A stretch of DNA of 64,000 nt from a virus. The notes under the pieces are model-generated. The model was not told the DNA's origin, ran no database searches, and was given only the letters and a program-made list of their open reading frames with translations. The stretch is from the IMG/VR virus record IMGVR_UViG_3300030098_006058, positions 1 through 64,000 of that record, one strand, 5' to 3'. Each line of letters opens with the position of its first letter. The first letter of the stretch is position 1. Below are positions 1 to 64,000 of this stretch, in pieces. Position numbers and translations under genes: made by a program.

Positions 1-8
1 TTTGTGAA

Positions 9-520
9 GAAGACTATCAAATGCATATTCATATGAGGGTAATTTAATAGTCTTCAACTCCAACCAAGAGTTATGTTGTTAAAATTAAAACTATAACTAC
101 AACAGTCTACTTAAGTAGTGTAAGGGATCCTCCTTTAGAGTCTATAGTCCTCTTGTTTAAGTGTTACTATTATTCACACAACGTAAAGGGAAACGTATTT
201 CCTTCTTGCATAGCTGTAGTTATAGTTAGATTATCACTATTTCTAGGCTTATAAAAAGAAAAGGAGAGGAGGATCCACCCCCAAGGTTTCATTATACCTC
301 TCCCAATCTCTTCAATACCGTGAAAAAAATGTAACTATAATGTTACTGTAACGCTTCATTTCCCGGAGCTCTCCCAGGATCCACTTTGCATATCATTAAT
401 CAAAATGATAATCACAGTAACATTATTTAAAGTGACAGTTACTATCACTGAGTTATGAGTTTAATACTTTGCGGGTTCTCCAACCTCGGACTGTTCCAAT
501 AAATAATAATAACTCAGTTA
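9..520 (-). ncRNA. Cluster of tandem structured RNA-like elements (long closing stems enclosing internal hairpins)
   Basis: Inverted repeats at 9-17/47-55, 89-101/215-227 (13 bp), 337-349/414-426 (13 bp) and 447-456/509-518 (10 bp). Two of the stems extend by G-U pairs only when read on the minus strand. No ORF of 60 aa or more lies here. Confidence 0.5.
253..304 (-). terminator. Possible intrinsic terminator with a large loop
   Basis: Minus strand reads GGAGAGG...CCTCTCC followed by TTTTCTTTTT. Confidence 0.45.
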
Positions 521-531
521 TTATCGTTCGT

Positions 532-563
532 CCTAAATTTAGCAAAGGTTATAGATCTAGTGT
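532..563 (-). promoter_or_regulatory. Repeated motif copy 1 (candidate phage-RNAP promoter)
   Basis: Minus strand ACACTAGATCTATAACCTTTGCTAAATTTAGG, directly downstream of a terminator. Confidence 0.55.
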
Positions 564-566
564 GTT

Positions 567-597
567 AAAAAAAAGAGGAGTACCGTAGTACTCCCCT
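567..597 (-). terminator. Rho-independent terminator
   Basis: Minus strand GGGGAGTAC-TACG-GTACTCCTC-TTTTTTTT, just after the stop of ORF 612..860. Confidence 0.9.
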
Positions 598-611
598 TAC
601 ACATGAGCTGA

Positions 612-860
612 TTAGAAGCAAAGCATAACTGGTTCACCCGATCCATCAGATAAATCTGATCTTAGATCTGTGATAAGCTCTTCATTACCTTTTACAGTAA
701 TCATCTTATCGAATGCACCATTTAGCTTGAACTTACGATCTGCAGTTTTCTCTAGTTGTTTGTGAACACCTAGGAATACTACAACTCGTCCGTCTTCTAG
801 TACACGCTCAGGAGATACAGATATAATCTCTATCTCTCTTGTGTTACTTGAATTTGTCAT
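612..860 (-). CDS. Hypothetical early protein, 82 aa
   Basis: ORF track; lies between a motif copy upstream and a terminator downstream. Confidence 0.75.
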   Translation of the reverse strand: MTNSSNTREIEIISVSPERVLEDGRVVVFLGVHKQLEKTADRKFKLNGAFDKMITVKGNEELITDLRSDLSDGSGEPVMLCF

Positions 861-941
861 AGCTTAACGAATTACAAGGTTATGGATGGAACAATTCTCT
901 TAGCCACAGTTTATCTGTGTTAGGTCTATAAGACCTGCTCT

Positions 942-971
942 CCATAGATTAATACAGGTTCTATCTAGTGT
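942..971 (-). promoter_or_regulatory. Repeated motif copy 2
   Basis: Minus strand ACACTAGATAGAACCTGTATTAATCTATGG. Confidence 0.55.
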
Positions 972-994
972 TATTGTGGACACTACTGTACAAT

Positions 995-1024
995 CCATAT
1001 ATAAGAAGAGGTATGATATAGTGT
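995..1024 (-). promoter_or_regulatory. Repeated motif copy 3
   Basis: Minus strand ACACTATATCATACCTCTTCTTATATATGG, directly downstream of a terminator. Confidence 0.55.
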
Positions 1025-1030
1025 ATTGTT

Positions 1031-1060
1031 AAAAAAAGAGAGGCCAATGTGACCTCTCTC
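1031..1060 (-). terminator. Rho-independent terminator
   Basis: Minus strand GAGAGAGGTC-ACATT-GGCCTCTC-TTTTTTT, downstream of ORF 1102..1470. Confidence 0.85.
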
Positions 1061-1101
1061 TTCCTAGTTACTTAGATAACTTTGCTTTCAGCTGTTCTAC
1101 C

Positions 1102-1470
1102 TCATCTTCTAGCTGATCTAGAGCGATGTTCTTGTATCTGTATGTGATACTCACGTTCTAGCTCTTTAGCTCTATCTAGCTTCTCTTGTAGCTCTACAGT
1201 CTTCTCATGACCTTCTAGCAACATAAGATGTCCATGATACTCATTCATAGCATCCTGATGTTCTGCTATCTCAAGCTCAACCTTAAGCTTGGCTAACTTG
1301 GTTTGCATTGCATCCAATGAGTCATATGCATAGATACGTGGAAACATCTTAACAGTTGATTTACCACCTCGCATCTTAATCTCAATGGCATGCTCACACA
1401 CCTTGATCGCAAGCCTTAGCTTAGTTTGAGTTACAGACTTATTAACTAACGTATTCATTAAACTCTTCAT
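1102..1470 (-). CDS. Hypothetical helical/coiled-coil early protein, 122 aa
   Basis: ORF track; A/T-rich leader; bracketed by motif copy 4 and a terminator. Confidence 0.8.
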   Translation of the reverse strand: MKSLMNTLVNKSVTQTKLRLAIKVCEHAIEIKMRGGKSTVKMFPRIYAYDSLDAMQTKLAKLKVELEIAEHQDAMNEYHGHLMLLEGHEKTVELQEKLDRAKELEREYHIQIQEHRSRSARR

Positions 1471-1534
1471 AATAATAGATTTAATAGGTTAATGGTATGA
1501 TACAGAGCTACCATTCATGCTTCACTCTGTACTA

Positions 1535-1566
1535 CCTATCATAAGAACAGGTATATGATATAGTGT
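1535..1566 (-). promoter_or_regulatory. Repeated motif copy 4
   Basis: Minus strand ACACTATATCATATACCTGTTCTTATGATAGG. Confidence 0.55.
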
Positions 1567-1697
1567 TGAGTATATAATGCTATATATTTCATGTACGGGG
1601 GGTTTGATTCACTCTTTGGGAGGGGGGAGTTTTCCAATAATGGTCTGCATCTCTGAATACTTACCATCAAAAAAAATATTATAAAAAAATTTTTTTT

Positions 1698-1719
1698 ATT
1701 GAAAATTTAATTATATTTG
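1698..1719 (+). promoter_or_regulatory. Bacteroidota sigma70-type promoter
   Basis: TTG at about 1699 and TATATTTG (TAnnTTTG, the -7 element) at 1712-1719, upstream of the first + strand ORF. Confidence 0.65.
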
Positions 1720-1748
1720 TTTCTTATTAATATTTAAACTATAGCGAA

Positions 1749-1925
1749 ATGAATTTTATAAACTCATGGAAAAAAGGAAATAAAAAAAATAAAATTAAAA
1801 TAGCATTGAGACTAGGAACACTTACTATTCTGGAAATTTATATGTGTTTTTCATCAATGTGTGAGAAGGATTGTAAATGTCCAAGAGCAAGATTTATGGT
1901 TCTTAACTTTGGATTTGAAATATAA
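1749..1925 (+). CDS. Small protein, 58 aa (not in ORF track)
   Basis: Manual translation MNFINSWKKGNKKNKIKIALRLGTLTILEIYMCFSSMCEKDCKCPRARFMVLNFGFEI; first ORF after the promoter. Confidence 0.7.
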   Translation: MNFINSWKKGNKKNKIKIALRLGTLTILEIYMCFSSMCEKDCKCPRARFMVLNFGFEI

Positions 1926-1996
1926 TGTGTCCTTGTCCAATATGTATAGTAGCAGCCGTTGTTGTTGCTATAGGAGTAAAGGTGATTAAAAGATAA
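1925..1996 (+). CDS. Putative 23-aa membrane micropeptide (not in ORF track)
   Basis: MCPCPICIVAAVVVAIGVKVIKR; TAATG-coupled to the previous ORF and fills the gap up to 2001. Confidence 0.5.
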   Translation: MCPCPICIVAAVVVAIGVKVIKR

Positions 1997-2000
1997 TATA

Positions 2001-2552
2001 ATGGCAAAACAAAAAACACTTGATGAATTAAGAGCTGAAGCCCATAAAAAAGTATTAGAAAATATCGAAAAGAATAAAGGGAAAAAACCTAATTATTCTA
2101 ATGAAGAGGATACGAGTTGTGGAATGTTACCAGAACAAGTACCTATTGTAAATAGAGATGAAGCTAAAAAAATGTATGATAAATTACATTTAAGTTATGA
2201 GTATACAGGTAGAACTAATGATGGAACTAATAGAAAAATATGGACATTAGTAGATCCTAATAAAGAGATTGTGGGGAAAATGAAAACTTCTAAGAATAGA
2301 ATGATTAATCCGAGACCTAAAGGTCCTTGGGATGAACAATTCTCTTATATGAGCCTTTTTCATTATTATGATCATATACCAAATAAAGAAGTAAACTTTC
2401 TTCCAAGTACAACTTATTATATGAAAGAACGTGAGAATACACCACTTAATAAAGAAATGAAAAAGAGAGTAGAAGCTGGAGAGAAACTACCAGAAAGTTT
2501 TGAAGAAATGTTTAAATTGAAAAAAGAAATAGAAGATAGCGGGTTAGAGTAG
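2001..2552 (+). CDS. Hypothetical protein, 183 aa
   Basis: ORF track; the 3' end overlaps the tRNA. Confidence 0.8.
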   Translation: MAKQKTLDELRAEAHKKVLENIEKNKGKKPNYSNEEDTSCGMLPEQVPIVNRDEAKKMYDKLHLSYEYTGRTNDGTNRKIWTLVDPNKEIVGKMKTSKNRMINPRPKGPWDEQFSYMSLFHYYDHIPNKEVNFLPSTTYYMKERENTPLNKEMKKRVEAGEKLPESFEEMFKLKKEIEDSGLE

Positions 2553-2609
2553 TGGTTACTCACGGGTTTCATTAGCCCGTCTAGGTTGGTTCGATTCCAG
2601 CACCCGCAA
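2538..2609 (+). tRNA. tRNA with CAT anticodon, initiator (fMet)-like, no encoded CCA
   Basis: Cloverleaf: acceptor AGCGGGT/ACCCGCA with a 1:72 mismatch, D arm GAGT/ACTC, anticodon arm CGGGT-TTCATTA-GCCCG, T arm GTTGG-TTCGATT-CCAGC. Confidence 0.9.
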
Positions 2610-2638
2610 CTAATATAAATAATATAATATAAATAATA

Positions 2639-2947
2639 ATGGCAAAAACAGAATTAAGTCAAATTAATCAATCCATCAGAACTGGTGATCAGACTAGGTT
2701 AGGATGTGGTGCTACGTATATTGCAGCAGGTTCTGTATATAGTGGAGATTGGGTAGCTATACAATCTATCAGTACTACAGATGTAGTATTAAAAGTTAGT
2801 GGTACAGCAGAAACTATAGTAGATTGGGAAGGGGTAGCAGGTGATATCACATTAGAATCTACTGTTGGAACAAGTCCGATATGGTATGGAAACTTCACAC
2901 AGATTGAAGTAGATGCTGGAATACTATTAGCGTATAAACGTTGCTAA
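2639..2947 (+). CDS. Hypothetical beta-rich protein, possibly virion-associated
   Basis: ORF track; G/T/V-rich composition. Confidence 0.75.
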   Translation: MAKTELSQINQSIRTGDQTRLGCGATYIAAGSVYSGDWVAIQSISTTDVVLKVSGTAETIVDWEGVAGDITLESTVGTSPIWYGNFTQIEVDAGILLAYKRC

Positions 2948-2950
2948 TGC

Positions 2951-3148
2951 ATGGATAGAATAATAAAAAAATTAGCTGAGGAATATAATTTACCAGAACA
3001 GGTAATTGAAAGTATTGTTAGATCTCAGTTTAAATTTGTATGTGATAAAATGCAAGATGATGAATGTTTAAAAATAAGATTACATCATTTTGGAGTATTT
3101 AAAATTAAACCTAAAAGATTATATGTAATAAATGGAGAGATTGAGTGA
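2951..3148 (+). CDS. HU/IHF-like DNA-binding protein
   Basis: Pattern IIKKLAEEYNL...IVRSQF...IRLHHFGVFKIK resembles the HU fold, as seen in crAss-like phages. Confidence 0.7.
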   Translation: MDRIIKKLAEEYNLPEQVIESIVRSQFKFVCDKMQDDECLKIRLHHFGVFKIKPKRLYVINGEIE

Positions 3149-3329
3149 TAAAGTAATAAAAACTTCTAAATCTGCTATAGAAAATAAATTATCTATAATA
3201 AGTAGATTATTAGCTAAAGAAAAGGCTAAAGAAGAACCGGATGAATTAATTATAGAAGATCTAACATTTAGAATAAAATCTTTTACTGGAAAGATAGGAA
3301 AGATAAATAAATTAATTAATAGAGAATGA
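3132..3329 (+). CDS. Hypothetical protein, 65 aa
   Basis: ORF track; overlaps its neighbours in an operon-like arrangement. Confidence 0.65.
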   Translation: MERLSDKVIKTSKSAIENKLSIISRLLAKEKAKEEPDELIIEDLTFRIKSFTGKIGKINKLINRE

Positions 3330-3637
3330 TATTACAATATCTTGAACGAGCATTTAGGAATAATAGAAAAGATACTGGTCTTAGAGCCTTATCACAATTT
3401 GTAAAAAAATCAAAAAAGAAAGGTAATGTATCTACTTGGGATATTAGATTAAAAGGGACAGAATTAGATCCTACTAATCCTGATGGAATAGAATATAATA
3501 AACCGGCAAGGTTTTTAACGTCAAAAGAAACAGATAAATATATATATAATATGAGTAAAAGACGTAAACCAACTAAAGTATCAAATAGAAAGAACTTTAG
3601 AATAGTTGATTATACCGAAAGAAAAAATAGAATATAA
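3326..3637 (+). CDS. Hypothetical basic protein, 103 aa
   Basis: ORF track; ATGA and TAATG coupling to neighbours. Confidence 0.7.
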   Translation: MILQYLERAFRNNRKDTGLRALSQFVKKSKKKGNVSTWDIRLKGTELDPTNPDGIEYNKPARFLTSKETDKYIYNMSKRRKPTKVSNRKNFRIVDYTERKNRI

Positions 3638-53176: not shown

Positions 53177-56100
53177 ATGAGTGAGAAAACATCAGCATTA
53201 AAGGGTATATTTTCAAATACCTCTACAGAATTAGATCCGGGTACGAATTTACCTAAGAGCCCTACTAAAGGTCCTAACGACCCTCCTATTGCTCCTCCCA
53301 AAGGTGCTAAAAGGTATAATAGAGGAGGATCTAATTCTAATTTATGGGGAGATGGTGTAAATAGTGTATCTGATATATTTAAAATCCCTTCTGAAACAGG
53401 TAAGATGGGAACTCCCCCAACAATATTTCCAGGTCCTAGTTATTACGATTTACCGGATGTAGATTTTGATATATACGATAGAGGGACTACTCTTCAACGA
53501 AGAGCTAGTAGGCAAGGTGTAGGAGAACAAATACTAGGAGCTTTGAATCAAGCAGTATTTGGAGAAGTTTTAGGAGGAACTATTGAAGCTCTGGGAGCCT
53601 TAGCAGATTTTGCATGGGGTGGAATAGGTGAAACGTATGGTAACTGGATGACTGAATTAGGATCTGATATAAGAAATTTTACAAAAGAGATTACTCCTAT
53701 TTATCAAATGTATCCAGGAATGGCTTGGAATCCGTCTGATTCTGGATGGTGGGCTCAAAATGCAGTATCTGTAGCATCTACACTATCATTACTTATTCCT
53801 GCTAGAGGAGTTCAAGTAGCGGGAGGAAAACTTATGATGGGAATTGCTAAGGGTACAAAGAAAATTAATAAGGCTAAAAAAGGAACTAAACTTCATAACT
53901 TCGCTAAAAAAATTGAAAATGCAGCGCACGGTACAAAATGGACTAGAGCTGCAGGTACGGCTGTATTAGGAGGTACTGCTAGTAGATTTATGGAAAATTA
54001 TAGAGAAGCTGCAGAAACTGGAGTACATTCTCTTGAAAAAAATCTAAAATTTTTATCTGATCCGGAAAATCTAGAAGAGTTTTTAAATAGTGAAGAAGGT
54101 CAGATATTTTTAGAAGAAACAGGAATTACAAGAAATGATCCTAATATCGTAACTAAAGCTGCACAATATGCTTCCGGAAAAGCTGCATCGCATGCATTTA
54201 AAATAGATTGGGCTAACTGGGCTTTTGATGTATTTCAATACGGTCTTATGTTTTCTCCTGGGTTATTTGGAAAGATAGGAACACGTACCGGAAAAGGTTC
54301 TTCTGCTGCAACGAAAGCTCAACAAGGATTTTTAAAGGCTCCAAAAAAAGTTAAATCACCTAGATTTGGAAGACTAGGTGCTGCATTTAATTGGACTGTT
54401 AAAAAAGGTAAACCTTTTGCTAAATGGGCTGCATGGTCTGCTACAGAGGGTGTAGAAGAGATGGTTAACTATATTGGTATGCAAGAAGGTATTCGAAGAG
54501 GTGATTTAATATTAGGTAATACAGGATATACTAATAAAGAATATATAGAATCTGATGACTTTTTAGGACGTTTAGATCACTATATGGAACAAGGTGGATT
54601 TTGGACATCCGCTATGTGGGGTGCGATAGGTGGAGGTATATTTACCGGGGTTGCAGGTATTAGAAATAGAAATTATCATAAAAAATTAGCAGAACAAAAA
54701 GTACAAGAAATTGGAGAAAGAACAGCGTTAATTACTGAATTAATGCAAGAAAGACAAAGATATGAAGCAATAGGAGATATTGACGGTATGAGAAAGATCG
54801 ATCAACAACTTGCTATTGAATTGGCGTTAAAAGCTGCAGCTGTAGGAAATGTAGACTTATTATTAGAAATGATTAATGACCCTATGATGGATGAAGCTTT
54901 AGAGTCAGGGGGAATGAAAAAAGAAGATATACAAGCTAAAAAGAAAGAAATAATAGAAACTGTTGAGCTAGTTGAGAAATTATATAATTCTAGAATGAAT
55001 ACCCTAACAGGGGATAAATATAGTGATGCATTAGGAGCATCTATTGTTAGAATGGAAATGAATATTTCTATGTATCAAAATCTTATTGATGAGATAAATA
55101 AACGTATAGAAGCAGGAGAAACATCAGATGTTGTTTTACAAGATGGTTTTAAAATTGGGTCTAATACTAAAAATAGATATGATTTACAAAGAAAAATACA
55201 AGAAGTAAATAAAGTACTTCAAATGTTTGAACAAATTAGGTCTGGTCTAGAAAAAGCAAATGCTGAAGCCGGAACTTCTGAAAAAGATAAACAACAAAAT
55301 AGTTTAGCTTTAGAAGAAACTAATAAGCAGATAGAAAAATATAAACAACAATTATCAGAGCTTGAAAAGAAATCAACTCTTGCTAAAAAAGATTCTCAAG
55401 ATAATTATGATGCGGGAGTATATAAACAAGAAGAAGACTTTTTAAAGAAAGTCCAAGAGATGGATCAAAGAGGGCTAGCAGAAAAGAAAGCTTTATATAC
55501 AAATTTACGGGATTTAAGTTGGGAACAACTCAATAGATTATTATCAGGAGAAACAACATTAATAGATAAAGATAAAAAAGAAGTAGGAAAAGCAAGTGTT
55601 CCAAAAACTGAACAAGAGGTTATAGAAGATTCTTTAGGGACAGGTACAGAACAGGCTAAACAATCAGCTCAAACAAGAGCAAAAATACAAGATTTAAGAA
55701 ACTTTATAATAAAAAATAAACCAAGTTTAAAAGCTCTTGATGATTTTATTGCACAATATCCTACTGATCAAGAGTTTCAAAGAGTAGCCGCATTAGCTAG
55801 AGAAGCTTATGCGCAATATAAAAATGAACAAGATTTTCGTGATAAAAATGACAGCTTTAGATCTAAATTAAAGAAAGTTATTAAAAAGGAAACAGACGAA
55901 ATAAAAGATTATATTGATGAAGCTAATAAGAAATTTTTAGAAGAATTAGATAAACTTACTAAACCTAAAACATCTATGAAAGATGTACGTAAAGGTGTTG
56001 AAACAGAGATTTGGTATAGAAATTGGATAGAAAATGGAGCTCTTAGAACTTATGGTATTAAAGAATCTCAGGATTATTTAATTAATGAATTATTTGATGA

Positions 56101-59100
56101 ATTTACACCGGTTATTTCTGTTGTTTGGAAAGGAAAAGTAGGTTCTTTATTTATAGACCCAGAAACTAATGAATATATTTTTAGACATGGAAGATCTGGA
56201 AAAGAAACAATTATACCTGTAGAGCCAGAAACTGCTTCAAATAAATATAGGAACTCTAAAGGACAGTATACTAAAGGAGCTACTTTACGTCATTTAGATA
56301 TGAGATTATTAAAGAATTCATATCTAAATATGAGTATTATAGCAGATGGTAGAACTATTATGATTAATGGTGAATACTATAATATATTAGATTCTGATCC
56401 TTCATCAGCAATTAAATATAATAAAAAAACAGCTGAAGTTTTAGGAGTACATTTAACTAAATGGGATGGAACAAAAGTTTTCATTACTACTCCTGGCCTT
56501 AAATATGAGATAGCTAATATAATTGAAACTTTGGAAGCTGTTAAAAGAATTCAGTTTAAAAACTTAGTGCAAAATGATTTTATGATCATTGAACATGAGG
56601 GTACAGAATATATAGTTCAATATGAAAATGCTGGAATGAAAGGTTTATTCCAGGATTACCAAGAATTAACAGTTAGATTAGAAGATGGTACTCCAGCTTC
56701 TTCCGATATAAAGAAAGAAGTTTTAAAAATCGCTAATCAAAATCTTACAAAAGCAATAGAACAAGAAATTAATAATATTAAAGTTAAATATAATGAAGCT
56801 AGAACATCTAATAATGTTACTCCCGCCAAAAATACAGAAACAACTCTTGAGTCTACACCCGAACAAGAGGGCAAAATTTCTGAGGACCCAGGGAAGGTCA
56901 AACAAATTACGCAATCCGAAATAAATTCAGAGAAAATAGAAGAATCTTCTGAAGGAAAAAAGGAAGAATTAAATACAAAAGAAGAAAAAGATTTAGCGAA
57001 CGGTGCACGTAATAGTATTGAACAAAATTCCTCTTCAATTACTGAAGAAGAAAATCAAAAGAATACAAAAGAAGAAGAGACACAGAATAAAGAACAAACG
57101 AAAAAAAAGCTAGAAGAGGTTATAGGCTTAGGCTCACAGCATGAATCAAATGAAAGTACTACACCTGAAGATGAGATGAATAAAGATCAAAATACTTTAG
57201 GATTAATTTCTTCTCCAACTGATACAGATCCAGATAATTTAGATGCACAATATCCATCAGGTTTTATTACAGAAATGGCCTGGATTAATATAGGAACAAA
57301 AGAAAATCCTTTAATTGTTAATTTACTTGATGGTAATGGTAATTTAATTGGAAATAGAATAGGTATTGGAACTGTTCCTTATATAGATAAGACTATAGAA
57401 GAAATGTCTAATCTTGAGAAGAGTTTATTAGAAGCAGGAAATGCTCGTATTGTAAAACTATATCATTGGAAACCTGTAGAATCAAATGTTGATGGTGTAA
57501 TGACAGTTTTAACTGAAGGAAGTCGAGCTATTGTAGATGAATCTCAATTAAAAGAATTAACTAATGACGAAGGAAAGCCATTATTTAGAATATGGAAAAC
57601 CAATACAGTAAAAGTAAGTGATTATATATCAACAGATGTATTAAATAGTCCTAAATTTGGGGTAGGGACTAAAATTATTTTAAGAGTTGAACCAAATGAT
57701 CAATTCTTCTCATCAAATGAACCTAATAAAGTAACTATTACATTAAGATTAGCATCTAATCCATCTATTATTTTAACTAAAAGACAAGGAGTTTTTGAAC
57801 AAGATGGAGAACTTTATGATCAAGTAAAGTCAATGTTAGAATCGGGAGATATTAAAGATATAGAAGCCGAAGTAACTGGAAAAACAAATGGATATGTTAT
57901 CAATATTAAAAGGAATGGAAAATCAGTTGAATCTAGTTTAAATACTTTAGAAGGACAATTTCCTTTAATATTAGGTTATGCTCAAGGAGATGTTATGAGA
58001 ATTGAAGGAGAAGAATATCAAGATATTATAGTTCCAGATAGTCCTTATTATGAGTCTGGTGCTACTTATTTAATTATACCTGCATCTAATGGAACATATA
58101 TACCAGTCAGGTTAAATACACAAAAATTAACAGATTTTGCAGCTGAAAAAGTGTTAGAAATAATATTATCTGAGATTACAAATCCTGAACAAAAAAGAGC
58201 GCAAGTTAATAAAATTGTTAATGTTTATTCTAAAGTTACTAGTGATAAGGTATTGGCTTTAGATAATTATGAATTTAAATTTAAATATGGTGATTTTAAT
58301 ATTGGTATACAATATAATATAGAAGGAAGCGGTAAAAACGCTAAAAACAATTTAAAAAATGCAATAGAAGGTAAACCTTTTCATTTCAAATTATATGATG
58401 AATTTGGTCTTCAAGTTAGTAAAGGAGAGTTTAAAGATGGAGATACTATAAAACAAAAAACATTAAGAGAATCTTCAGAATTAAATATAAATGAAAACGG
58501 TCCTATAAAAGAGGCTATTATAGAACATTTAAAAACTAAATATTATAATATTCAAAAAAATGAATTAAATAGTGACCAAAAATTTATATCTCCCCTAAAA
58601 GATGGTAAAGTATATAAAAATTACTTAGAGTATTTATCAGACCCAGAATTAAAAATAATAACTCATGATATTCCAAGCGGATCTCAAACAAAATTCTTTA
58701 ATACAAAAGTATTTTTTAAACTTACATCTAAACCAATTAAAGCTACTTCTAAAAAGAAGAGTGCACCCTCTTTCCTTAGTTCAAGTGACAAAAAAGTTAT
58801 TAATAGTGTAGAAACTGAAAATGAAAATATTTCTGAAATTCCTACTGAATATGATGAAGTAAAAGGAAAAGTAAAAAAATCAGGTCGAAGAAAATACACT
58901 GTTACAGAACAAACAGATAATAGTCAAAGAAATCCTAATATTGAGACATTTGATCCAACAAAATTAGCAGGTATCCCGAAAGATAGTACTGTAGAAAGTT
59001 CAGATAATTTATCTGATAACGAGAATAATATTATATCAGATAAATCTGAAGAAAGAAAAAATAATAAAAGTGATGATAATTTTGATGTTCAATTAAGACA

Positions 59101-62100
59101 AAGATATGAAACAGATCCTGCATCTGATATACTATCTGAAAAAGAAGTACAATGGTTTAAAGATAAATTTGGAGAAGAGGGATTAGAAATAGCCCAAAGA
59201 ATTAAATATATTATATTAAAAGATGGCCGAATGGCATATGGAAAATACCATAAAGGTATGGTTACATTAGCACAATTTGGTAAAGAAGGTACAGCTTATT
59301 GGGAAGCTATGCGTCGTATAATGGATTTACATCTAACACCAGAAGAAAAAAATGATTTAACTCTTGCAGCTATTAATAGATGGAATGATACAGATCAAAA
59401 ACAAGTTGAAATAAATATTGCTAGAGGTTTTATGGAATTCATGTTAACTGAAAATGACTCATCTCTTTCTGGTATTTTAAAAAGATTCTTTAGAAATCTT
59501 CTATATTATATAAAAAATATGTTAGGTATGAAGCCTAGTATAGATCAAATGTTCAAAGATTTATCTAATAGAACTTATACAAAATATAATGTTAAAGAAT
59601 TAAATGAATTATCTCAAGTTCAAAATGTAGCTAAATTACGAGAAAAGAAAAATTATACAGAACTAGAGGTTGAAGATATAACCTCAAGTATAAACTTTAT
59701 GTTATGGGAACATTTAAATAATAAATATGGAGATAATTGGGTAGATATTTTAAGTAAACCTGTAGAACTTGCAAAAGAATATGAAAAAATTAGAATAAGT
59801 TGGAGAAATAAGTCAGAAGAAAGATTGAAAGATCCAAATTTAAGTGAGCTTAATCGAAGAATCCATTCTAATATATTAGATATAACTGATGAATCTGTAT
59901 TTTATACCCAATTTGAAAAAGTAGGTAAAAATAGAATCAATTTAGAAAATGTTACTGATGTTGGATTTAGAGATTTAGCAGTAGAAGGGTTGATAGAATG
60001 GGGTTATAAATTTAAATTTAAAAAAGATTTTACTCTAGATTACGACTCTAAACCAGAAATAACAGAAGCAATTCCTAATGAAGAAGAAGTATCTACTGAA
60101 GATATTGGAATTGAAGATATAGAAAAATTAGAAAAGATATATGGTATGAATTTTTGGCATCAAGACCAAAGATCTACATTATCTAAAGAGGTTAAAATAG
60201 GATTAAGTTTTATTAAGAGCCGTGAGAGAAGTAATATAACAGGTAGTTATAAATTTATACCATTTGATGATATATATAATTATATTTCTGCTGCACTTTC
60301 TAATGTACCTCAAAAATATATAGAATCTACATTAAGAGGTTTACAAAATAAAACAGTAAATGGTCAAAATGTAATGCCAAGCGTTATTAGAGTATTTGAT
60401 CAAGCTTCCGACCAATGGAAAAGAAAATTCTTAACACATTTCAATAAACAAAATATTTTATTTAAAACATTAGTTATTGAAGGAGGTAAAACTAAAACTG
60501 TATTTACTAATAGAAATGGTATCCACCAACAAATTATGAATGAATGGATAGCAGCACGAGGTTTAACTAATATCTTTACAGAAAGAGTAGGAAAACCCGA
60601 CGAAATAAATATAGAAGAAGTTGAAAAAATATGGAGTAAAACAAAACCAGACATTTTCTATGATCAATTAATGCCTATTTACCAAAAATATATTAAATTA
60701 TTAGGTAATCAAGCTGAACAAACAAAAGGAAAAGAAGAATATTTAAAAGTAATGACTCTTATTCTTGAAAAAATTGGGATAACTATACCAAAAGATGTTC
60801 AAAATGGTATTATAAATGATGAAAAAATGAATGTGAAAGATTTACATTCATATATGACGGGTACAAATTCTGTATCTTATATGTTCACTAATAAACTTTT
60901 AAAAGGACTTAGTCCATATATAGCAGAGAATCTAGAAGGGATGGCTCTTGGTAGACTTGCAGAGCTAGTTGCACAGTATAGAGTTGATAAATATTTATCT
61001 TCATTTATTGGAGGAAACAGAAAACCTATATTTTCTATTAATCTTAATACATTTGGTTCAGATAGAGTTAATTTATTAACAGATCCTAGAACGTCGAAGC
61101 AGACAATAGATGAATATTTAAGTGATTCTTTTTATAATCCTCTTCCAGATAATAACAATTATATGCATCTTATTTTAAGATTGTTACAAATCCCTGAAGT
61201 AAGAGATAAATTTGTATTAAGTACTTTTGATGTTATACAAGAAAGAGGAGAATTTCAAGCAGGTAAAACATACGACGAATTAACAGAAGCAGTTTCTTGG
61301 AAAACAAGATATGCTATGTTTTATAATAATGGATTACCATTTGCAGAAATTAATACAGGTACTAAAAGTGATAAAACAAATTTTCAATTTGTATTAGTTC
61401 CTAAAATAAACTATATGAATAGACGTCTTGGATTATGGACATCTCCTCATCAAGAAAATGCAAAAACATTTGTAGATACAGCTATAGATTTATTATATCC
61501 TTTAGCATTAGCAGAATACAATAATATAATAAGAACAGAAAATGAATTATTTGGTCCTACTCCAATAAGTCCACGGGAAGAAATAAAAAATGTACATTAT
61601 AAAGATGTTCCAGGAGATAGAAAAGGAAATGGATTAAGATTCTCTATGTTGGATATATTAAATGATTCTCAATATGAAATATTTACTCCAGAAGGTAGAT
61701 TAAGAAGACCTAGTAATGGGCTGACGCATGAAGATATGAATAGAATGCAAGCTTTAATAAAAACAGGTATTAAAAATTTCGTATTAAGAGAAGTGAATAA
61801 AACTTTAGATTCAATGTCTAAATCAGGGGTCGTTAATAAAGTTAAAGAAGGCCATTATACAAATAATGGTTTACCTAGTGAAACATTAGCAGGAAGAGTA
61901 GGTACTGAAAATAATATATATGACTCCTTAGTTGGGTTTGCTATAAACGATTTAGTATATAAAAATTATCTCTCTACAATATTTGGTCCACCGGCCTTTT
62001 ATTATAAAAATATTGTAGATAAAATGAAAAGAGGTTACCAAGATGTAACTCCAGGTTATAATGTAATAGTTGGTAAAAATGGTATGAAATCAAAGTTTAA

Positions 62101-64000
62101 CCATGTAACATTACGGGATATTTATAAACAACGACCTGAAAATGTTGCAAGGATAAAGAAAATATTAACAGATGCAGGAGTTTCTAATAAGGTAGCAGAT
62201 AGAATTTCACAAGCATATGCAAGTGTAATTAAAACTGATGGTCAAGGATATGTAACATTAGAATTTTACAAACAGATTTTAGAATCTACAGGACAATGGA
62301 GCCCTCAACATCAAGAGTATTATGAAAAATATTGGGTTACAGGTAAAAAAATGCCAGCAGAAGCTAGAGATTTATTATTAGATCCTCTTAAAACATTCTA
62401 TTTTGGACCAAGAGTACATACTAATTCATTAGGAAATACAAGATTACGATGGGAACAATTAAAACATTCGGTTGTACCATTATTAAGAGAATGGACTGAA
62501 ACTACAAAACAAGAAGGAGAATTTACTTTAAATAATCTTAGACAAAGAATGGAAGGTGTAGGACAATATAAAGGTTTTACTCCAATAGATATGGTTGATT
62601 TTGAATCAGGTGTAAAAGTAGGTGCTAACGGTCTTACAGAATTTAATAGACCAGAAACATGGGTAGTTGAACAATTTGAAACTAAAAATTTAAGATTACC
62701 ACAACTTATTAAAACTAAAGTTAAAGATCCATTAGATGGAACTCAATGGGCTAAATTAATTTTAGAGAATTTATCTGTAGATAATAATTATACAATATTT
62801 GAAAAATCTTTTAATGGAGAAGAATTAAGAAAATTATATAACGATATATATGCTGAGAAAATTAAAAGATCTTCAGAGAAACTTATGAAACGAATAGGTT
62901 GGAATTCATTTAAACAGAAATGGGAAAATAGAGACGAACTTATAAATACGCCAGAATTTGCACAAGCTCAATTAGAGTTTTTGAAAAAAGTAAGAGCTAT
63001 TATAGAAGATGGATTGACACAAAGAAATATGTCAGGTGTATATTTTGATGCTTTAGATTTAAGGGAAGTAAATGATATGATTACTAAATTTGATTTTGCT
63101 GTTCCTTTAGCATTCCCGACGTTTGCTAAAACATTTGAAAATTTACTTAATTCAGTTGTTAAAAATAATGTATTAAAACAAAGAGTACATGGTATGTCTG
63201 CTGTACAAGTAGCTGAATTTGGATCAGGAGTAGGTCAATTTACTGATGAATTACAAATTAAAAGATCTCCAAGTGGTGGTATATATGCAGAAGCGAGATT
63301 GTCTTATGATATAGCTCTTAAATTAGGTTACCAGGGTAAAGTAGGTGAAATAAAAAATATAGATAAAAATATCTTAGAAGTATTAGGATATCGTATTCCA
63401 ACTCAAGGTAAAAATTCTATGATATCTTTAAAAGTAATTGAAATATTACCAAGTACTATGGGAAGTATTATTCAGGTTCCTTCAGAATTAACTACAATGA
63501 TGGGACAAGATTTTGATATTGATAAATTATATCTTATGTTCCCAGAACGTACTAAAACAGGGACAAAAATTGAAGCGTTCTCATACGACACATATTTATC
63601 TAAAGGAAGAAGTTTTGATGGTATCGGAGAGCAGAGTTTAAATAATGCTTTATTTGATATTAGAAAGGCTATACTAGAATCTAAACATACTGCTAGAGAA
63701 ATTTTAGATCCCCTTGATACAACTACTTATGAAGAAAAAATACGTGAATATGAACGTTTAGGAATAATACAGAAATTACAGAACTTGGCTGCAAATGCAA
63801 CATCGACAGATGTATTCTTTGAAATGATTAATAAGGATGCTAATATGCTTATTGGTTTATTTTCATTACATGCTACAGGACATGCAATGGCCCAAGAAAT
63901 GGGATTAGAATTAGATGATTTTTATTCTATTAATATAAATATTAATGGAAATGAATCATTAACTGATTTATCTCGTATTTTTGATTATTATGGTGGATTT
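53177..64000 (+). CDS. Giant virion-packaged RNA polymerase protein (partial, >3600 aa; not in ORF track)
   Basis: ATG at 53177. In the same frame: TDGQGY, GYRIPTQGKNS and catalytic GQDFDIDK (DFDID at 63509-63523). The track lists no closed ORF from this ATG, consistent with a frame that stays open to the window end. Confidence 0.92.
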   Translation, partial: MSEKTSALKGIFSNTSTELDPGTNLPKSPTKGPNDPPIAPPKGAKRYNRGGSNSNLWGDGVNSVSDIFKIPSETGKMGTPPTIFPGPSYYDLPDVDFDIYDRGTTLQRRASRQGVGEQILGALNQAVFGEVLGGTIEALGALADFAWGGIGETYGNWMTELGSDIRNFTKEITPIYQMYPGMAWNPSDSGWWAQNAVSVASTLSLLIPARGVQVAGGKLMMGIAKGTKKINKAKKGTKLHNFAKKIENAAHGTKWTRAAGTAVLGGTASRFMENYREAAETGVHSLEKNLKFLSDPENLEEFLNSEEGQIFLEETGITRNDPNIVTKAAQYASGKAASHAFKIDWANWAFDVFQYGLMFSPGLFGKIGTRTGKGSSAATKAQQGFLKAPKKVKSPRFGRLGAAFNWTVKKGKPFAKWAAWSATEGVEEMVNYIGMQEGIRRGDLILGNTGYTNKEYIESDDFLGRLDHYMEQGGFWTSAMWGAIGGGIFTGVAGIRNRNYHKKLAEQKVQEIGERTALITELMQERQRYEAIGDIDGMRKIDQQLAIELALKAAAVGNVDLLLEMINDPMMDEALESGGMKKEDIQAKKKEIIETVELVEKLYNSRMNTLTGDKYSDALGASIVRMEMNISMYQNLIDEINKRIEAGETSDVVLQDGFKIGSNTKNRYDLQRKIQEVNKVLQMFEQIRSGLEKANAEAGTSEKDKQQNSLALEETNKQIEKYKQQLSELEKKSTLAKKDSQDNYDAGVYKQEEDFLKKVQEMDQRGLAEKKALYTNLRDLSWEQLNRLLSGETTLIDKDKKEVGKASVPKTEQEVIEDSLGTGTEQAKQSAQTRAKIQDLRNFIIKNKPSLKALDDFIAQYPTDQEFQRVAALAREAYAQYKNEQDFRDKNDSFRSKLKKVIKKETDEIKDYIDEANKKFLEELDKLTKPKTSMKDVRKGVETEIWYRNWIENGALRTYGIKESQDYLINELFDEFTPVISVVWKGKVGSLFIDPETNEYIFRHGRSGKETIIPVEPETASNKYRNSKGQYTKGATLRHLDMRLLKNSYLNMSIIADGRTIMINGEYYNILDSDPSSAIKYNKKTAEVLGVHLTKWDGTKVFITTPGLKYEIANIIETLEAVKRIQFKNLVQNDFMIIEHEGTEYIVQYENAGMKGLFQDYQELTVRLEDGTPASSDIKKEVLKIANQNLTKAIEQEINNIKVKYNEARTSNNVTPAKNTETTLESTPEQEGKISEDPGKVKQITQSEINSEKIEESSEGKKEELNTKEEKDLANGARNSIEQNSSSITEEENQKNTKEEETQNKEQTKKKLEEVIGLGSQHESNESTTPEDEMNKDQNTLGLISSPTDTDPDNLDAQYPSGFITEMAWINIGTKENPLIVNLLDGNGNLIGNRIGIGTVPYIDKTIEEMSNLEKSLLEAGNARIVKLYHWKPVESNVDGVMTVLTEGSRAIVDESQLKELTNDEGKPLFRIWKTNTVKVSDYISTDVLNSPKFGVGTKIILRVEPNDQFFSSNEPNKVTITLRLASNPSIILTKRQGVFEQDGELYDQVKSMLESGDIKDIEAEVTGKTNGYVINIKRNGKSVESSLNTLEGQFPLILGYAQGDVMRIEGEEYQDIIVPDSPYYESGATYLIIPASNGTYIPVRLNTQKLTDFAAEKVLEIILSEITNPEQKRAQVNKIVNVYSKVTSDKVLALDNYEFKFKYGDFNIGIQYNIEGSGKNAKNNLKNAIEGKPFHFKLYDEFGLQVSKGEFKDGDTIKQKTLRESSELNINENGPIKEAIIEHLKTKYYNIQKNELNSDQKFISPLKDGKVYKNYLEYLSDPELKIITHDIPSGSQTKFFNTKVFFKLTSKPIKATSKKKSAPSFLSSSDKKVINSVETENENISEIPTEYDEVKGKVKKSGRRKYTVTEQTDNSQRNPNIETFDPTKLAGIPKDSTVESSDNLSDNENNIISDKSEERKNNKSDDNFDVQLRQRYETDPASDILSEKEVQWFKDKFGEEGLEIAQRIKYIILKDGRMAYGKYHKGMVTLAQFGKEGTAYWEAMRRIMDLHLTPEEKNDLTLAAINRWNDTDQKQVEINIARGFMEFMLTENDSSLSGILKRFFRNLLYYIKNMLGMKPSIDQMFKDLSNRTYTKYNVKELNELSQVQNVAKLREKKNYTELEVEDITSSINFMLWEHLNNKYGDNWVDILSKPVELAKEYEKIRISWRNKSEERLKDPNLSELNRRIHSNILDITDESVFYTQFEKVGKNRINLENVTDVGFRDLAVEGLIEWGYKFKFKKDFTLDYDSKPEITEAIPNEEEVSTEDIGIEDIEKLEKIYGMNFWHQDQRSTLSKEVKIGLSFIKSRERSNITGSYKFIPFDDIYNYISAALSNVPQKYIESTLRGLQNKTVNGQNVMPSVIRVFDQASDQWKRKFLTHFNKQNILFKTLVIEGGKTKTVFTNRNGIHQQIMNEWIAARGLTNIFTERVGKPDEINIEEVEKIWSKTKPDIFYDQLMPIYQKYIKLLGNQAEQTKGKEEYLKVMTLILEKIGITIPKDVQNGIINDEKMNVKDLHSYMTGTNSVSYMFTNKLLKGLSPYIAENLEGMALGRLAELVAQYRVDKYLSSFIGGNRKPIFSINLNTFGSDRVNLLTDPRTSKQTIDEYLSDSFYNPLPDNNNYMHLILRLLQIPEVRDKFVLSTFDVIQERGEFQAGKTYDELTEAVSWKTRYAMFYNNGLPFAEINTGTKSDKTNFQFVLVPKINYMNRRLGLWTSPHQENAKTFVDTAIDLLYPLALAEYNNIIRTENELFGPTPISPREEIKNVHYKDVPGDRKGNGLRFSMLDILNDSQYEIFTPEGRLRRPSNGLTHEDMNRMQALIKTGIKNFVLREVNKTLDSMSKSGVVNKVKEGHYTNNGLPSETLAGRVGTENNIYDSLVGFAINDLVYKNYLSTIFGPPAFYYKNIVDKMKRGYQDVTPGYNVIVGKNGMKSKFNHVTLRDIYKQRPENVARIKKILTDAGVSNKVADRISQAYASVIKTDGQGYVTLEFYKQILESTGQWSPQHQEYYEKYWVTGKKMPAEARDLLLDPLKTFYFGPRVHTNSLGNTRLRWEQLKHSVVPLLREWTETTKQEGEFTLNNLRQRMEGVGQYKGFTPIDMVDFESGVKVGANGLTEFNRPETWVVEQFETKNLRLPQLIKTKVKDPLDGTQWAKLILENLSVDNNYTIFEKSFNGEELRKLYNDIYAEKIKRSSEKLMKRIGWNSFKQKWENRDELINTPEFAQAQLEFLKKVRAIIEDGLTQRNMSGVYFDALDLREVNDMITKFDFAVPLAFPTFAKTFENLLNSVVKNNVLKQRVHGMSAVQVAEFGSGVGQFTDELQIKRSPSGGIYAEARLSYDIALKLGYQGKVGEIKNIDKNILEVLGYRIPTQGKNSMISLKVIEILPSTMGSIIQVPSELTTMMGQDFDIDKLYLMFPERTKTGTKIEAFSYDTYLSKGRSFDGIGEQSLNNALFDIRKAILESKHTAREILDPLDTTTYEEKIREYERLGIIQKLQNLAANATSTDVFFEMINKDANMLIGLFSLHATGHAMAQEMGLELDDFYSINININGNESLTDLSRIFDYYGGF

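What the first reader, a model, noticed from the sequence alone, without database searches (positions are those of the whole stretch)
262..531. Non-coding transcription unit built from tandem multibranched RNA domains
Seen: between motif copy 1 and the terminator-like hairpin at 253-304 there is no sizeable ORF. Instead there are two back-to-back domains. One is 447-518, a 10 bp closing stem around GGTT-GGAG-AACC. The other is 331-442, where ATAATGTTACTGTGA pairs with TTACAGTAACATTAT (15 bp including a G-U) and encloses the hairpins TATCATT/AATGATA and TCCTGG/CCGGGA. The G-U pairs work only on the minus strand. GTGGATCCT occurs in both the 331-442 domain and the loop of the 253-304 hairpin. 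Inference: an early-expressed ncRNA polycistron, possibly cut by RNase III into small RNAs that act as decoys, antitoxins or anti-defence RNAs.
Basis: partly seen in the sequence, partly recalled or inferred. Interest (0 to 1): 0.75.

Follow-up and report, generated by a model that had tools for sequence, protein, structure and literature searches.

The report
Swappable small RNA gene, marine crAss-like phage
A marine crAss-like phage carries, in its array of tiny promoter-to-terminator units, one unit that seems to make a folded RNA of about 207 bases instead of a protein; the RNA turns up as its own piece in an ocean RNA library, and near-identical phages lack it.

Summary
Window 331-442 folds far better than shuffles (z -4.9), 444-531 only marginally (z -2.2), and no ATG ORF over 15 codons lies inside. 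The window is a crAss-like phage (Crassvirus capsid, E 7e-146).

New evidence: in one marine metatranscriptome run, a 207-nt contig covers exactly window 324-530. It starts 2 nt after the repeated promoter-like motif (563-532) and ends inside the U7 run (329-323) that follows the long stem. The only other piece of 1-2000 in that run starts at the end of another motif copy. The unit is therefore most likely a discrete, self-terminated RNA of about 207 nt on the minus strand. It ends before the 253-304 hairpin, not at it.

The RNA is accessory. Two of four sequences spanning the slot (96-98% identical relatives) have a 26-nt mini-hairpin instead, with junctions at the transcript start and the U-run. 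This resembles PeSL-type cassette shuffling.

No Rfam family, homologue, phage target or host mimic was found. All copies are identical, so covariation could not be tested. Function, timing and RNase III processing remain untested.

Earlier scan notes describe similar promoter-terminator cassette arrays in other crAss-like phages, but carrying mini-genes.

The parts
573..598 (-). Intrinsic terminator of the upstream 82-aa gene (860-612): 11-bp stem followed by U8. It lies immediately before the promoter-like motif.
   Evidence: terminator scan; only the terminator parts of Rfam models match here
532..563 (-). Promoter-like motif copy (ACACTAGATC..AACCTTT..GG). It is one of 5 minus-strand copies at the head of the replication-gene arm.
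   Evidence: The RNA-library contig starts at 530, 2 nt after the motif's final GG.
324..530 (-). The transcribed unit: an RNA of about 207 nt, seen as one whole contig of a marine metatranscriptome run. The real ends are probably about 533 and 323.
   Evidence: X15 record 17: 207 nt, covers 324-530; folds
447..518 (-). Domain D1: a 10-bp closing stem around small hairpins, including GGUU-GGAG-AACC. Structurally ambiguous (pair probability about 0.41).
331..442 (-). Domain D2: a 16-bp stem (pair probability 0.97), an optional 8-bp outer stem, and two inner hairpins. It ends 1 nt before the U-run, so it also has the geometry of a terminator.
323..329 (-). U7 run. The RNA contig ends at 324. The run is shared with the 'empty' allele of relatives and forms the 3' junction of the cassette.
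253..304 (-). Conserved hairpin with a U-rich tail. It belongs to the framework and is present in all 4 slot-spanning sequences and at the contig end. It could be a backup terminator. No X15 RNA contig covers it.
73..230 (-). Second cassette slot. Here it holds a structured non-coding stretch (13-15-bp closing stem, 89-227). This is allelic to a 74-aa ORF (contig end, L008) and to about 100 nt plus a 42-aa Cys-rich ORF (L004, L007).
   Evidence: X1 holds it as a separate contig of lower depth
9..55 (-). Conserved 14-bp hairpin that closes the second slot. The next motif copy (genome 88690-88659) follows it after the circular join.
   Evidence: (z -4.1)
995..1024 (-). Another copy of the promoter-like motif. 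The second RNA-library contig (836-996) starts at the first G of its final GG.

Best explanation
Window 533-323 (minus strand) is a stand-alone gene for a structured non-coding RNA of about 207-210 nt. It sits in the promoter-terminator cassette array that opens the replication-gene arm of a marine crAss-like phage.

Transcription starts at or next to the GG that ends the phage-specific motif ACACTAGATC..AACCTTT..GG. It runs through D1 (a loosely defined three-hairpin domain) and D2 (a rod of 16-24 bp with two side hairpins), and stops in the U7 run right after D2. D2 therefore serves as both body and terminator and probably stabilises the RNA.

The unit is accessory cargo. It has been exchanged exactly at the transcript start and at the U-run, as expected if recombination between the repeated promoter and terminator framework shuffles cassettes (PeSL-like).

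Shown: the anatomy, the fold statistics, the RNA-library contig with these ends, and the presence/absence polymorphism.

Inferred: the strand (from the orientation of motif and U-run, and from 7 G-U pairs); that the motif is the promoter; and that the virion RNA polymerase reads it early.

Inferred function (about 0.25): a trans-acting RNA that works by binding or sequestering a host protein, for host take-over or anti-defence. The grounds are that no complementary target exists in the phage genome and that the only G+C-rich parts are exposed hairpins in an otherwise A+U-rich rod.
For: - Phage identity: Crass_capsid E 6.8e-146 and a P22-type portal; DFDID motif in a 5708-aa ORF.
- Architecture: terminator 598-573, then the motif, then the unit.
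- RNA evidence: in metatranscriptome run X15, 2 contigs in all were laid on window 1-2000. One of 207 nt covers 324-530 and one of 164 nt covers 836-996. Both (2 of 2) begin within 3 nt of the end of a motif copy (532 and 995). The first ends inside the U7 run.
- DNA controls: DNA run X1 crosses both ends without a break (contig 240-1114). DNA runs keep contigs as short as 31 nt, so a continuation would probably have been listed.
- Fold: z -4.94 for D2 and -3.65 for the whole unit.
- No ATG ORF over 15 codons, read by eye.
- Accessory status: L004 and L007 (96-98% identical) have a 26-nt mini-hairpin in its place. L008 and the window carry the RNA. That is 2 of 4 slot-spanning sequences, with junctions at the motif end and at the U-run.
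- Precedent: the crAss-like phage phi14:2 makes abundant early non-coding RNAs from intergenic regions at the start of its early arm (bioRxiv 10.1101/2020.03.07.982082, passages read).
Against: - The RNA evidence is one run of one study, and consists of contigs, not reads. It gives no strand, no true ends and no reliable abundance, and some DNA carry-over can never be fully excluded.
- All copies seen are identical (0 differences over 1067-330), so there is no covariation or conservation test.
- Both strands fold about equally well against shuffles.
- D1 is only marginally structured.
- No homologue exists anywhere searched, so no family supports it.
- The small genes in the next slot have no motif of their own. 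The unit could therefore be their leader rather than an independent gene.
- Function is pure inference.
Confidence: 0.65

Rival explanations
1. Terminated leader or attenuator. The unit is the 5' leader of the downstream cassette gene(s). The 207-nt RNA is the by-product of premature termination, like the short pR'-tR' transcript of lambda (recalled) or the 5'UTR-derived short RNAs of Pseudomonas phages. Read-through, perhaps by a modified or different polymerase, would then express the downstream gene.
For: - The 74-aa and 42-aa genes in the next slot have no motif copy of their own between the 253-304 hairpin and their ATG.
- Two hairpin-plus-U signals lie in tandem (329-323 and 253-243).
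- The 'empty' allele keeps a mini-hairpin plus U7 at the same place. This suggests that a promoter followed by a stop is the conserved logic.
Against: - No X15 RNA contig lies downstream of 324.
- 200 nt of strongly folded cargo is not needed for the stop, since the empty allele does it with 26 nt.
- Nothing like a known riboswitch or antiterminator was found.
Confidence: 0.2
2. DNA-level element: palindromes that serve replication, packaging or recombination near the genome junction. The RNA would be incidental.
For: Both strands fold equally well against shuffles. The region lies at the contig ends.
Against: - 96-98% identical phages lack it, so it is dispensable.
- The contig ends are an assembly wrap, not physical ends: L008 bridges them.
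- The RNA-library contig matches the promoter-to-U-run bounds.
- 7 G-U pairs favour one strand.
Confidence: 0.05
3. It encodes one or more very small peptides, for example the 30-aa GTG-started frame at 448-356, whose N-terminus is hydrophobic, or ATG frames of 11-13 aa.
For: Such frames exist.
Against: - The 30-aa frame has no ATG start, and its start codon lies inside the D1 closing stem.
- The other 30-aa frame (545-453) starts upstream of the RNA.
- The frames run through the long stems, whose A+T-rich sequence trivially gives I/V/L/T codons.
- No variation is available for a codon test.
Confidence: 0.05
4. Functionless spacer or remnant whose structure is fortuitous. It is transcribed only because it lies behind a strong promoter.
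For: No homologue, no conservation data and dispensable.
Against: - D2: z -4.94, 0 of 200 shuffles.
- The stem-plus-U7 end is placed exactly where the RNA contig stops.
- Phage genomes are compact.
Confidence: 0.05

Closest known systems
Early non-coding RNAs of the crAss-like Cellulophaga phage phi14:2 (g004-g005 and g005-g006 intergenic regions; bioRxiv 10.1101/2020.03.07.982082, passages read)
   Same: A crAss-like phage of a marine Bacteroidota-type host. Non-coding stretches among the first small genes of the early arm, transcribed in the same direction as the early genes. Reported as more abundant than most mRNAs. Function unknown.
   Different: The phi14:2 regions are about 690 nt each (annotation), against about 207 nt here. 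No sequence similarity was found, nor a like pattern of long closing stems. The paper found no common motif upstream of early transcripts, whereas here a clear motif precedes the RNA. Time of expression is not known here.
PeSL (promoter-early stem-loop) cassettes of T4-type phages (Arbiol et al. 2010, PMC2839356, abstract read; PMC4122927, listing only)
   Same: Repeated composite promoter-plus-terminator elements in a hyperplastic early region. Near-identical phages differ by insertion, deletion or replacement of the cargo between them.
   Different: PeSL promoters are sigma-70-like and the cargo is ORFan genes. Here the motif is phage-specific and unlike a host promoter, and the cargo is an RNA. 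The phage lineage is different. Recombination at the elements is inferred here from the junctions, not shown.
Short promoter-proximal RNAs of virulent Pseudomonas phages (PMC10914365, passages read)
   Same: Small RNAs of about 80-210 nt in virulent phages. The 5'UTR-residing class is ascribed to premature termination, and for some candidates the figure legend reports Northern-blot confirmation of length and abundance. Function unknown.
   Different: The paper reports that those candidates are conserved within their genera and sit in the 5'UTRs of named genes. This one is a swappable cassette with no homologue found.
Intrinsically terminated bacterial and phage sRNA genes in general, and RNA anti-CRISPRs (recalled, not read here)
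   Same: Own promoter, stem plus U-run at the end, no ORF, and a location among accessory early genes where counter-defence genes are usually found.
   Different: No likeness to a CRISPR repeat or other host RNA could be shown. No base-pairing target was found in the phage.

Membership tests
Any Rfam 15 family | Match to a covariance model at or near its gathering score | tested here: not met
   0 matches at gathering score on the whole window; within 324-530 the best hits are mir-881 (16.9 bits against 70) and RAGATH-12 (13.3 bits against 75), E 3.8-8.3, which is noise.
tRNA / tmRNA | Cloverleaf or tmRNA recognised by ARAGORN | tested here: not met
   the only gene found in the window is tRNA-Met at 2538-2610.
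Stand-alone sRNA gene (promoter, no ORF, intrinsic terminator, discrete transcript) | Discrete transcript with ends at a promoter and at a stem plus U-run | tested here: met
   the RNA-library contig covers 324-530. The motif ends at 532 and the U7 run is 329-323. Caveat: these are contigs of one run and give no strand.
Stand-alone sRNA gene (promoter, no ORF, intrinsic terminator, discrete transcript) | Structure supported by covariation | not testable with these tools
   All copies are identical.
PeSL-like promoter-terminator shuffling cassettes | Repeated composite terminator-promoter elements flanking small units in an early region | tested here: met
   5 minus-strand motif copies lie between 1566 and genome 88681. 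Two of them directly follow terminators. No terminators were found further down the arm.
PeSL-like promoter-terminator shuffling cassettes | Near-identical phages differ by cargo replaced exactly between the elements | tested here: met
   the filled (window, L008) and empty (L004, L007) alleles diverge from the motif end to the U-run. The second slot has three different cargoes.
PeSL-like promoter-terminator shuffling cassettes | Sigma-70-type promoter; mini-circle intermediates | tested here: not met
   The motif is not sigma-70-like; the scan places no sigma-70-type site on it. Mini-circles cannot be tested. The resemblance is therefore in how it works, not membership of the T4 family.
phi14:2-type early non-coding RNAs | Sequence or structure homology to the phi14:2 intergenic RNAs | tested here: not met
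   blastn gave only short A+T-rich matches (E >= 0.17) and nhmmer gave no hit; no comparable stems.
phi14:2-type early non-coding RNAs | Early, rifampicin-resistant (virion RNAP) transcription | not testable with these tools
   This needs an infection time course.
RNA anti-CRISPR or other host-RNA mimic | Near-identity of part of the RNA to a host CRISPR repeat or host RNA | tested here: inconclusive
   Exact 24-mer and 22-mer cores were searched against 185,579 species genomes. The first gave 0 hits. The second gave 1 hit, inside a coding region of a G+C-rich MAG, with no further likeness. Only exact words were tested and the host is unknown.
Processive antiterminator RNA (HK022 put-like; recalled) | Promoter-proximal stem-loops that make the polymerase read through downstream terminators | tested here: inconclusive
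   The position fits. However, the RNA contig stops at the first stem plus U-run, and no X15 contig covers 231-323.

The most novel reading that the evidence does not exclude
CrAss-like phages trade not only mini-genes but whole RNA genes between the promoter-terminator units that their injected RNA polymerase reads first. On this reading, the 207-nt RNA is an 'RNA moron': a stable decoy expressed in the ocean, made at the very start of infection, that disarms a host defence or RNA-binding factor present only in some host strains. That would explain its presence/absence among 97%-identical phages. The matching transcript starts would also be the first transcript-level pointer to the still undescribed promoter of a crAss-type virion RNA polymerase.
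Probability: 0.2. Interest if true: 0.85.

Novelty: new member of a known kind. Interest (0 to 1): 0.55.

Why it matters
Early non-coding RNAs were reported for one cultured crAss-like phage (phi14:2) and left unexplained. This gives a second, much smaller and sharply bounded example, seen in an environmental RNA library.

Natural 'with' and 'without' alleles exist in otherwise near-identical genomes. That is an ideal starting point for a functional test.

The coincidence of two RNA-contig starts with two copies of the repeated motif is also direct, if thin, evidence that the motif is a promoter. It therefore bears on the open question of what the crAss-type injected RNA polymerase recognises.

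Tried and rejected
- Rfam at gathering score on the whole window, and at E<=10 on 1-700: nothing.
- ARAGORN: nothing in the unit.
- Homologues of the RNA:
  - GenBank phages by blastn: window 1-2000 at E<=1e-5 gave no match. The RNA alone at E<=5 gave only a 48-nt, 79% match in Acinetobacter phage Ac42 (E 0.05), judged chance.
  - Exact core words in IMG/VR: 0 hits for both words.
  - Exact core words in GTDB genomes: 0 hits for the first word. The second gave 1 chance hit, in a G+C-rich coding region.
- Relatives found through the neighbouring proteins: only one IMG/VR contig, which is the empty allele.
- The motif pattern in the metagenome collection gave two TARA contigs, one filled and one empty. 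The filled one is identical in the RNA, so covariation analysis was impossible.
- Paralogy among D1, D2, the 73-230 domain and the 253-304 hairpin: local alignment scores are no better than shuffles, z from -0.9 to 0.9.
- Antisense targets in the phage's own genome: only A+T-rich matches of 10-17 nt at E>=0.22.
- Likeness to the first 7 kb of phi14:2: none.
- Simple deletion as the origin of the empty allele: the 26-nt filler aligns to the RNA's 3' part at about 57% by my count. That is not convincing, so I read it as replacement.
- Contig ends caused by strain bubbles rather than RNA ends: considered because T7/T8 and nearby SNPs exist. Judged unlikely, because X15 has no other contig on 231-323 or 531-835, although contigs as short as 31 nt are kept in other runs of the same call.
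- Depth figures (12.8 against 2.5) are not used to rank expression, as the tool warns.
- PFAM and PHROGs on the neighbouring small proteins: no families at useful E-values.
- Supplements of the phi14:2 preprint (its promoter and primer-extension tables) were not seen and may bear on the comparison.

Full report
WHAT THE WINDOW IS. The window is the first 64 kb of an 89,108-base virus record. It encodes a Crassvirus-type major capsid protein (PF23898, E 6.8e-146) and a P22-type portal. Its capsid is at most 44% identical to those of GenBank crAss-like phages. A 5708-aa ORF (53177-70300) carries the DFDID motif, which the phi14:2 paper names as the catalytic site of the virion RNA polymerase. 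All 20 rows that hold part of window 1-2000 are marine or marine-derived metagenomes.

Plus-strand genes run from about 2001 to about 70650. Minus-strand genes (the replication arm) start near 1566 and run leftward, through the contig join, down to about 70657. The finding therefore lies among the first units of the minus-strand arm.

THE CONTIG ENDS ARE A WRAP, NOT GENOME ENDS. Genome 89005-89108 repeats window 231-334 (98%), and genome positions about 88690-88761 repeat window 1-72. A different middle lies between them: a 74-aa minus-strand ORF (88986-88762) in place of window 73-230.

The TARA contig L008 bridges the join. Its bases 1-859 equal window 1067-209, and its bases 734-3620 equal genome 89108-86223. 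In DNA run X1, window 43-269 is a separate, lower-depth contig between longer ones. The genome is thus circular or circularly permuted in assembly, and window 73-230 is one allele of a variable slot.

THE OBSERVATION.
- D2 (331-442) has a 16-bp stem with pair probability 0.97, an inner hairpin UCCUGGG/UCCGGGA with probability 0.93, and a second inner hairpin. Its z-score is -4.94 on the minus strand and -4.15 on the plus strand, with 0 of 200 shuffles each.
- D1 (444-531) has the 10-bp closing stem in the MFE fold, but only at probability about 0.41 and z -2.2 on either strand.
- The 253-304 hairpin does not beat shuffles (z -0.01), but it is followed by a U-rich tail.
- Seven of the 60 pairs of the minus-strand fold are G-U and would fail on the plus strand. 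The plus-strand fold has 3.
- Whole-unit z-scores are similar on both strands, -3.65 and -3.92. Folding alone therefore does not decide the strand.
- There is no sizeable ORF: two 30-aa GTG/TTG frames on the minus strand, a 39-aa TTG frame on the plus strand, and ATG frames of at most 15 codons (and reading).
- GGATCC occurs three times in window 125-382, against 14 in the whole record.

THE FRAME AROUND IT. On the minus strand, the 82-aa gene (860-612) ends in a strong terminator (598-573, 11-bp stem, U8). Directly after it comes the motif ACACTAGATCTATAACCTTTGCTAAATTTAGG (563-532).

A loose search for the first 10 bases, allowing 1 mismatch, gave 27 hits in the genome (11 on the plus strand, 16 on the minus). 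By eye, five of these share the downstream ACCT...GG part. They start at 1566, 1024, 971, 563 and genome 88690, all on the minus strand at the head of this arm. No further terminators are found in genome 84000-88700. It also resembles cassette arrays noted by this scan in other crAss-like phages.

RNA EVIDENCE. One RNA run (X15, a marine metatranscriptome held as contigs) holds part of window 1-2000. When laid, it gives only two contigs.
- The first is 207 nt and covers window 324-530 over its whole length. Position 530 is 2 nt after the GG that ends the motif. Position 324 lies inside the U7 run 329-323, which begins 1 nt after the outer stem of D2.
- The second is 164 nt and covers 836-996. 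Position 996 is the first G of the GG that ends the motif copy 1024-995.

So 2 of 2 RNA-library contigs start within 3 nt of a motif end. The first also ends where a stem-plus-U terminator predicts. The remaining 82% of the 2-kb stretch has no cover in X15, while DNA run X1 crosses both ends of the unit in one contig (240-1114). This argues against DNA carry-over.

Strain differences near 329-304 could break a contig. However, X15 has no further pieces on the conserved 231-323, although DNA runs in the same call keep contigs as short as 31 nt.

Limits of this evidence: one run, contigs only, no strand, no exact ends, and depth that cannot be used for ranking.

THE UNIT IS ACCESSORY. Four sequences span the slot.
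- The window and TARA contig L008 carry the RNA, with no difference between them over 1067-330.
- IMG/VR contig L004 and TARA contig L007, 96-98% identical in the flanks, have instead a 26-nt filler that forms a 7-bp mini-hairpin, followed by the same U-run.

The alleles part right after the motif and rejoin at the U-run, so exactly the transcribed part is exchanged.

The next slot lies between the conserved 253-304 hairpin and the conserved 9-55 hairpin. It has three different cargoes: the structured non-coding window 73-230, a 74-aa ORF, and about 100 nt plus a 42-aa Cys-rich ORF. Partial contigs in DNA runs X9 (410-585) and X10 (276-441) hold the RNA in the same context. X10 links it to the 74-aa-gene allele.

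WHAT IT IS NOT.
- No Rfam family matches, and it is not a tRNA or tmRNA.
- No homologue was found in GenBank phages, IMG/VR or 185,579 species genomes. Those genomes gave one chance 22-mer hit inside a G+C-rich coding region.
- There is no likeness to the first 7 kb of phi14:2.
- The domains are not paralogues of each other.
- There is no complementary target in the phage genome beyond chance.

MOST LIKELY MECHANISM. The unit is a stand-alone gene for a non-coding RNA of about 207-210 nt. A phage-specific promoter ends in the initiating GG. D1 and D2 are transcribed as one molecule, since one contig spans both. Transcription ends at the U-run after D2.

The long helix of D2 would also protect the 3' end. 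That fits a stable RNA that stands out in a community RNA sample when its neighbours do not.

Its position among the first units of the arm, and the precedent of phi14:2, make early synthesis plausible. In phi14:2, non-coding RNAs from the start of the early arm are among the most abundant transcripts and persist through infection (passages). Synthesis by the injected polymerase is likewise plausible. Neither point is shown here.

For function I commit, at about 0.25, to a trans-acting protein-binding or decoy RNA for host take-over or counter-defence. The reasons are three:
- It is strain-variable cargo in the kind of early hyperplastic region where such genes sit.
- It has no antisense target in the phage.
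- Its only G+C-rich, information-rich parts are exposed hairpins.

The main rival, at about 0.2, is a terminated leader that gates the motif-less genes downstream. This would be comparable to the short RNAs in Pseudomonas phages that arise by premature termination (PMC10914365, passages).

COMPARISON WITH KNOWN THINGS. In how it works and evolves, the array resembles the PeSL cassettes of T4-type phages (PMC2839356, abstract). It differs in having a non-sigma-70 motif, another phage lineage and an RNA as cargo. It is not a member of that family.

It resembles the phi14:2 early non-coding RNAs in position and in lacking an ORF, but it is not homologous to them and is three times shorter. It is best filed as a new member of the known kind 'phage-encoded small non-coding RNA with its own promoter and terminator'. 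It would be a new RNA family candidate with only one sequence so far.

VERDICT. The reading is partly supported: the non-coding transcript is real as far as one RNA library can show. Its 3' end needs correcting to 324, and its processing and function are untested. Interest is moderate (0.55). The natural filled and empty alleles, together with the match between transcript starts and the motif, make both the RNA's role and the promoter question directly testable.

Noticed in passing
window 1-334 and genome 88690-89108 (L002, L010): The record's two ends repeat each other but have a different middle. The contig is a circular wrap through a strain bubble: window 73-230 against a 74-aa ORF at 88986-88762. 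TARA contig L008 bridges the join, so the real length is about 88.8 kb.
   Followed up: yes
window 73-230; L004 2290-2570; L008 about 855-1080: The slot between the conserved hairpins 253-304 and 9-55 has three cargoes in near-identical phages. They are a structured non-coding 139-nt domain, a 74-aa ORF, and about 100 nt (flanked by TTATAAGC direct repeats) plus a 42-aa Cys-rich ORF. None has its own motif copy.
   Followed up: partly
window 836-996 and 995-1024: The second RNA-library contig starts at the GG that ends the motif copy 1024-995. It runs across the motif copy 971-942 into the 82-aa gene. This is transcript-level support that the motif is a promoter with its start at the GG.
   Followed up: partly
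window 53177-64000, continuing to genome 70300: A single 5708-aa ORF with DFDID at residue 3445. The crAss-type virion RNA polymerase motif sits inside a giant protein, far longer than the separate polymerase gene described for phi14:2.
   Followed up: no
window 125, 271, 377: GGATCC, a self-complementary hexamer, occurs three times within 260 nt, each time in or next to a hairpin loop of a different domain. The whole 89-kb record has 14 copies (about 6 expected). A protein site or a loop-loop contact is possible; neither was tested.
   Followed up: partly
window 1670-1930: The A-rich, low-complexity divergent region between the two gene arms attracts many unrelated metagenome contigs with loose ends. 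Depth there is not meaningful.
   Followed up: no
window 2538-2610: tRNA-Met (CAT) overlaps the last 15 nt of the ORF 2001-2552.
   Followed up: no
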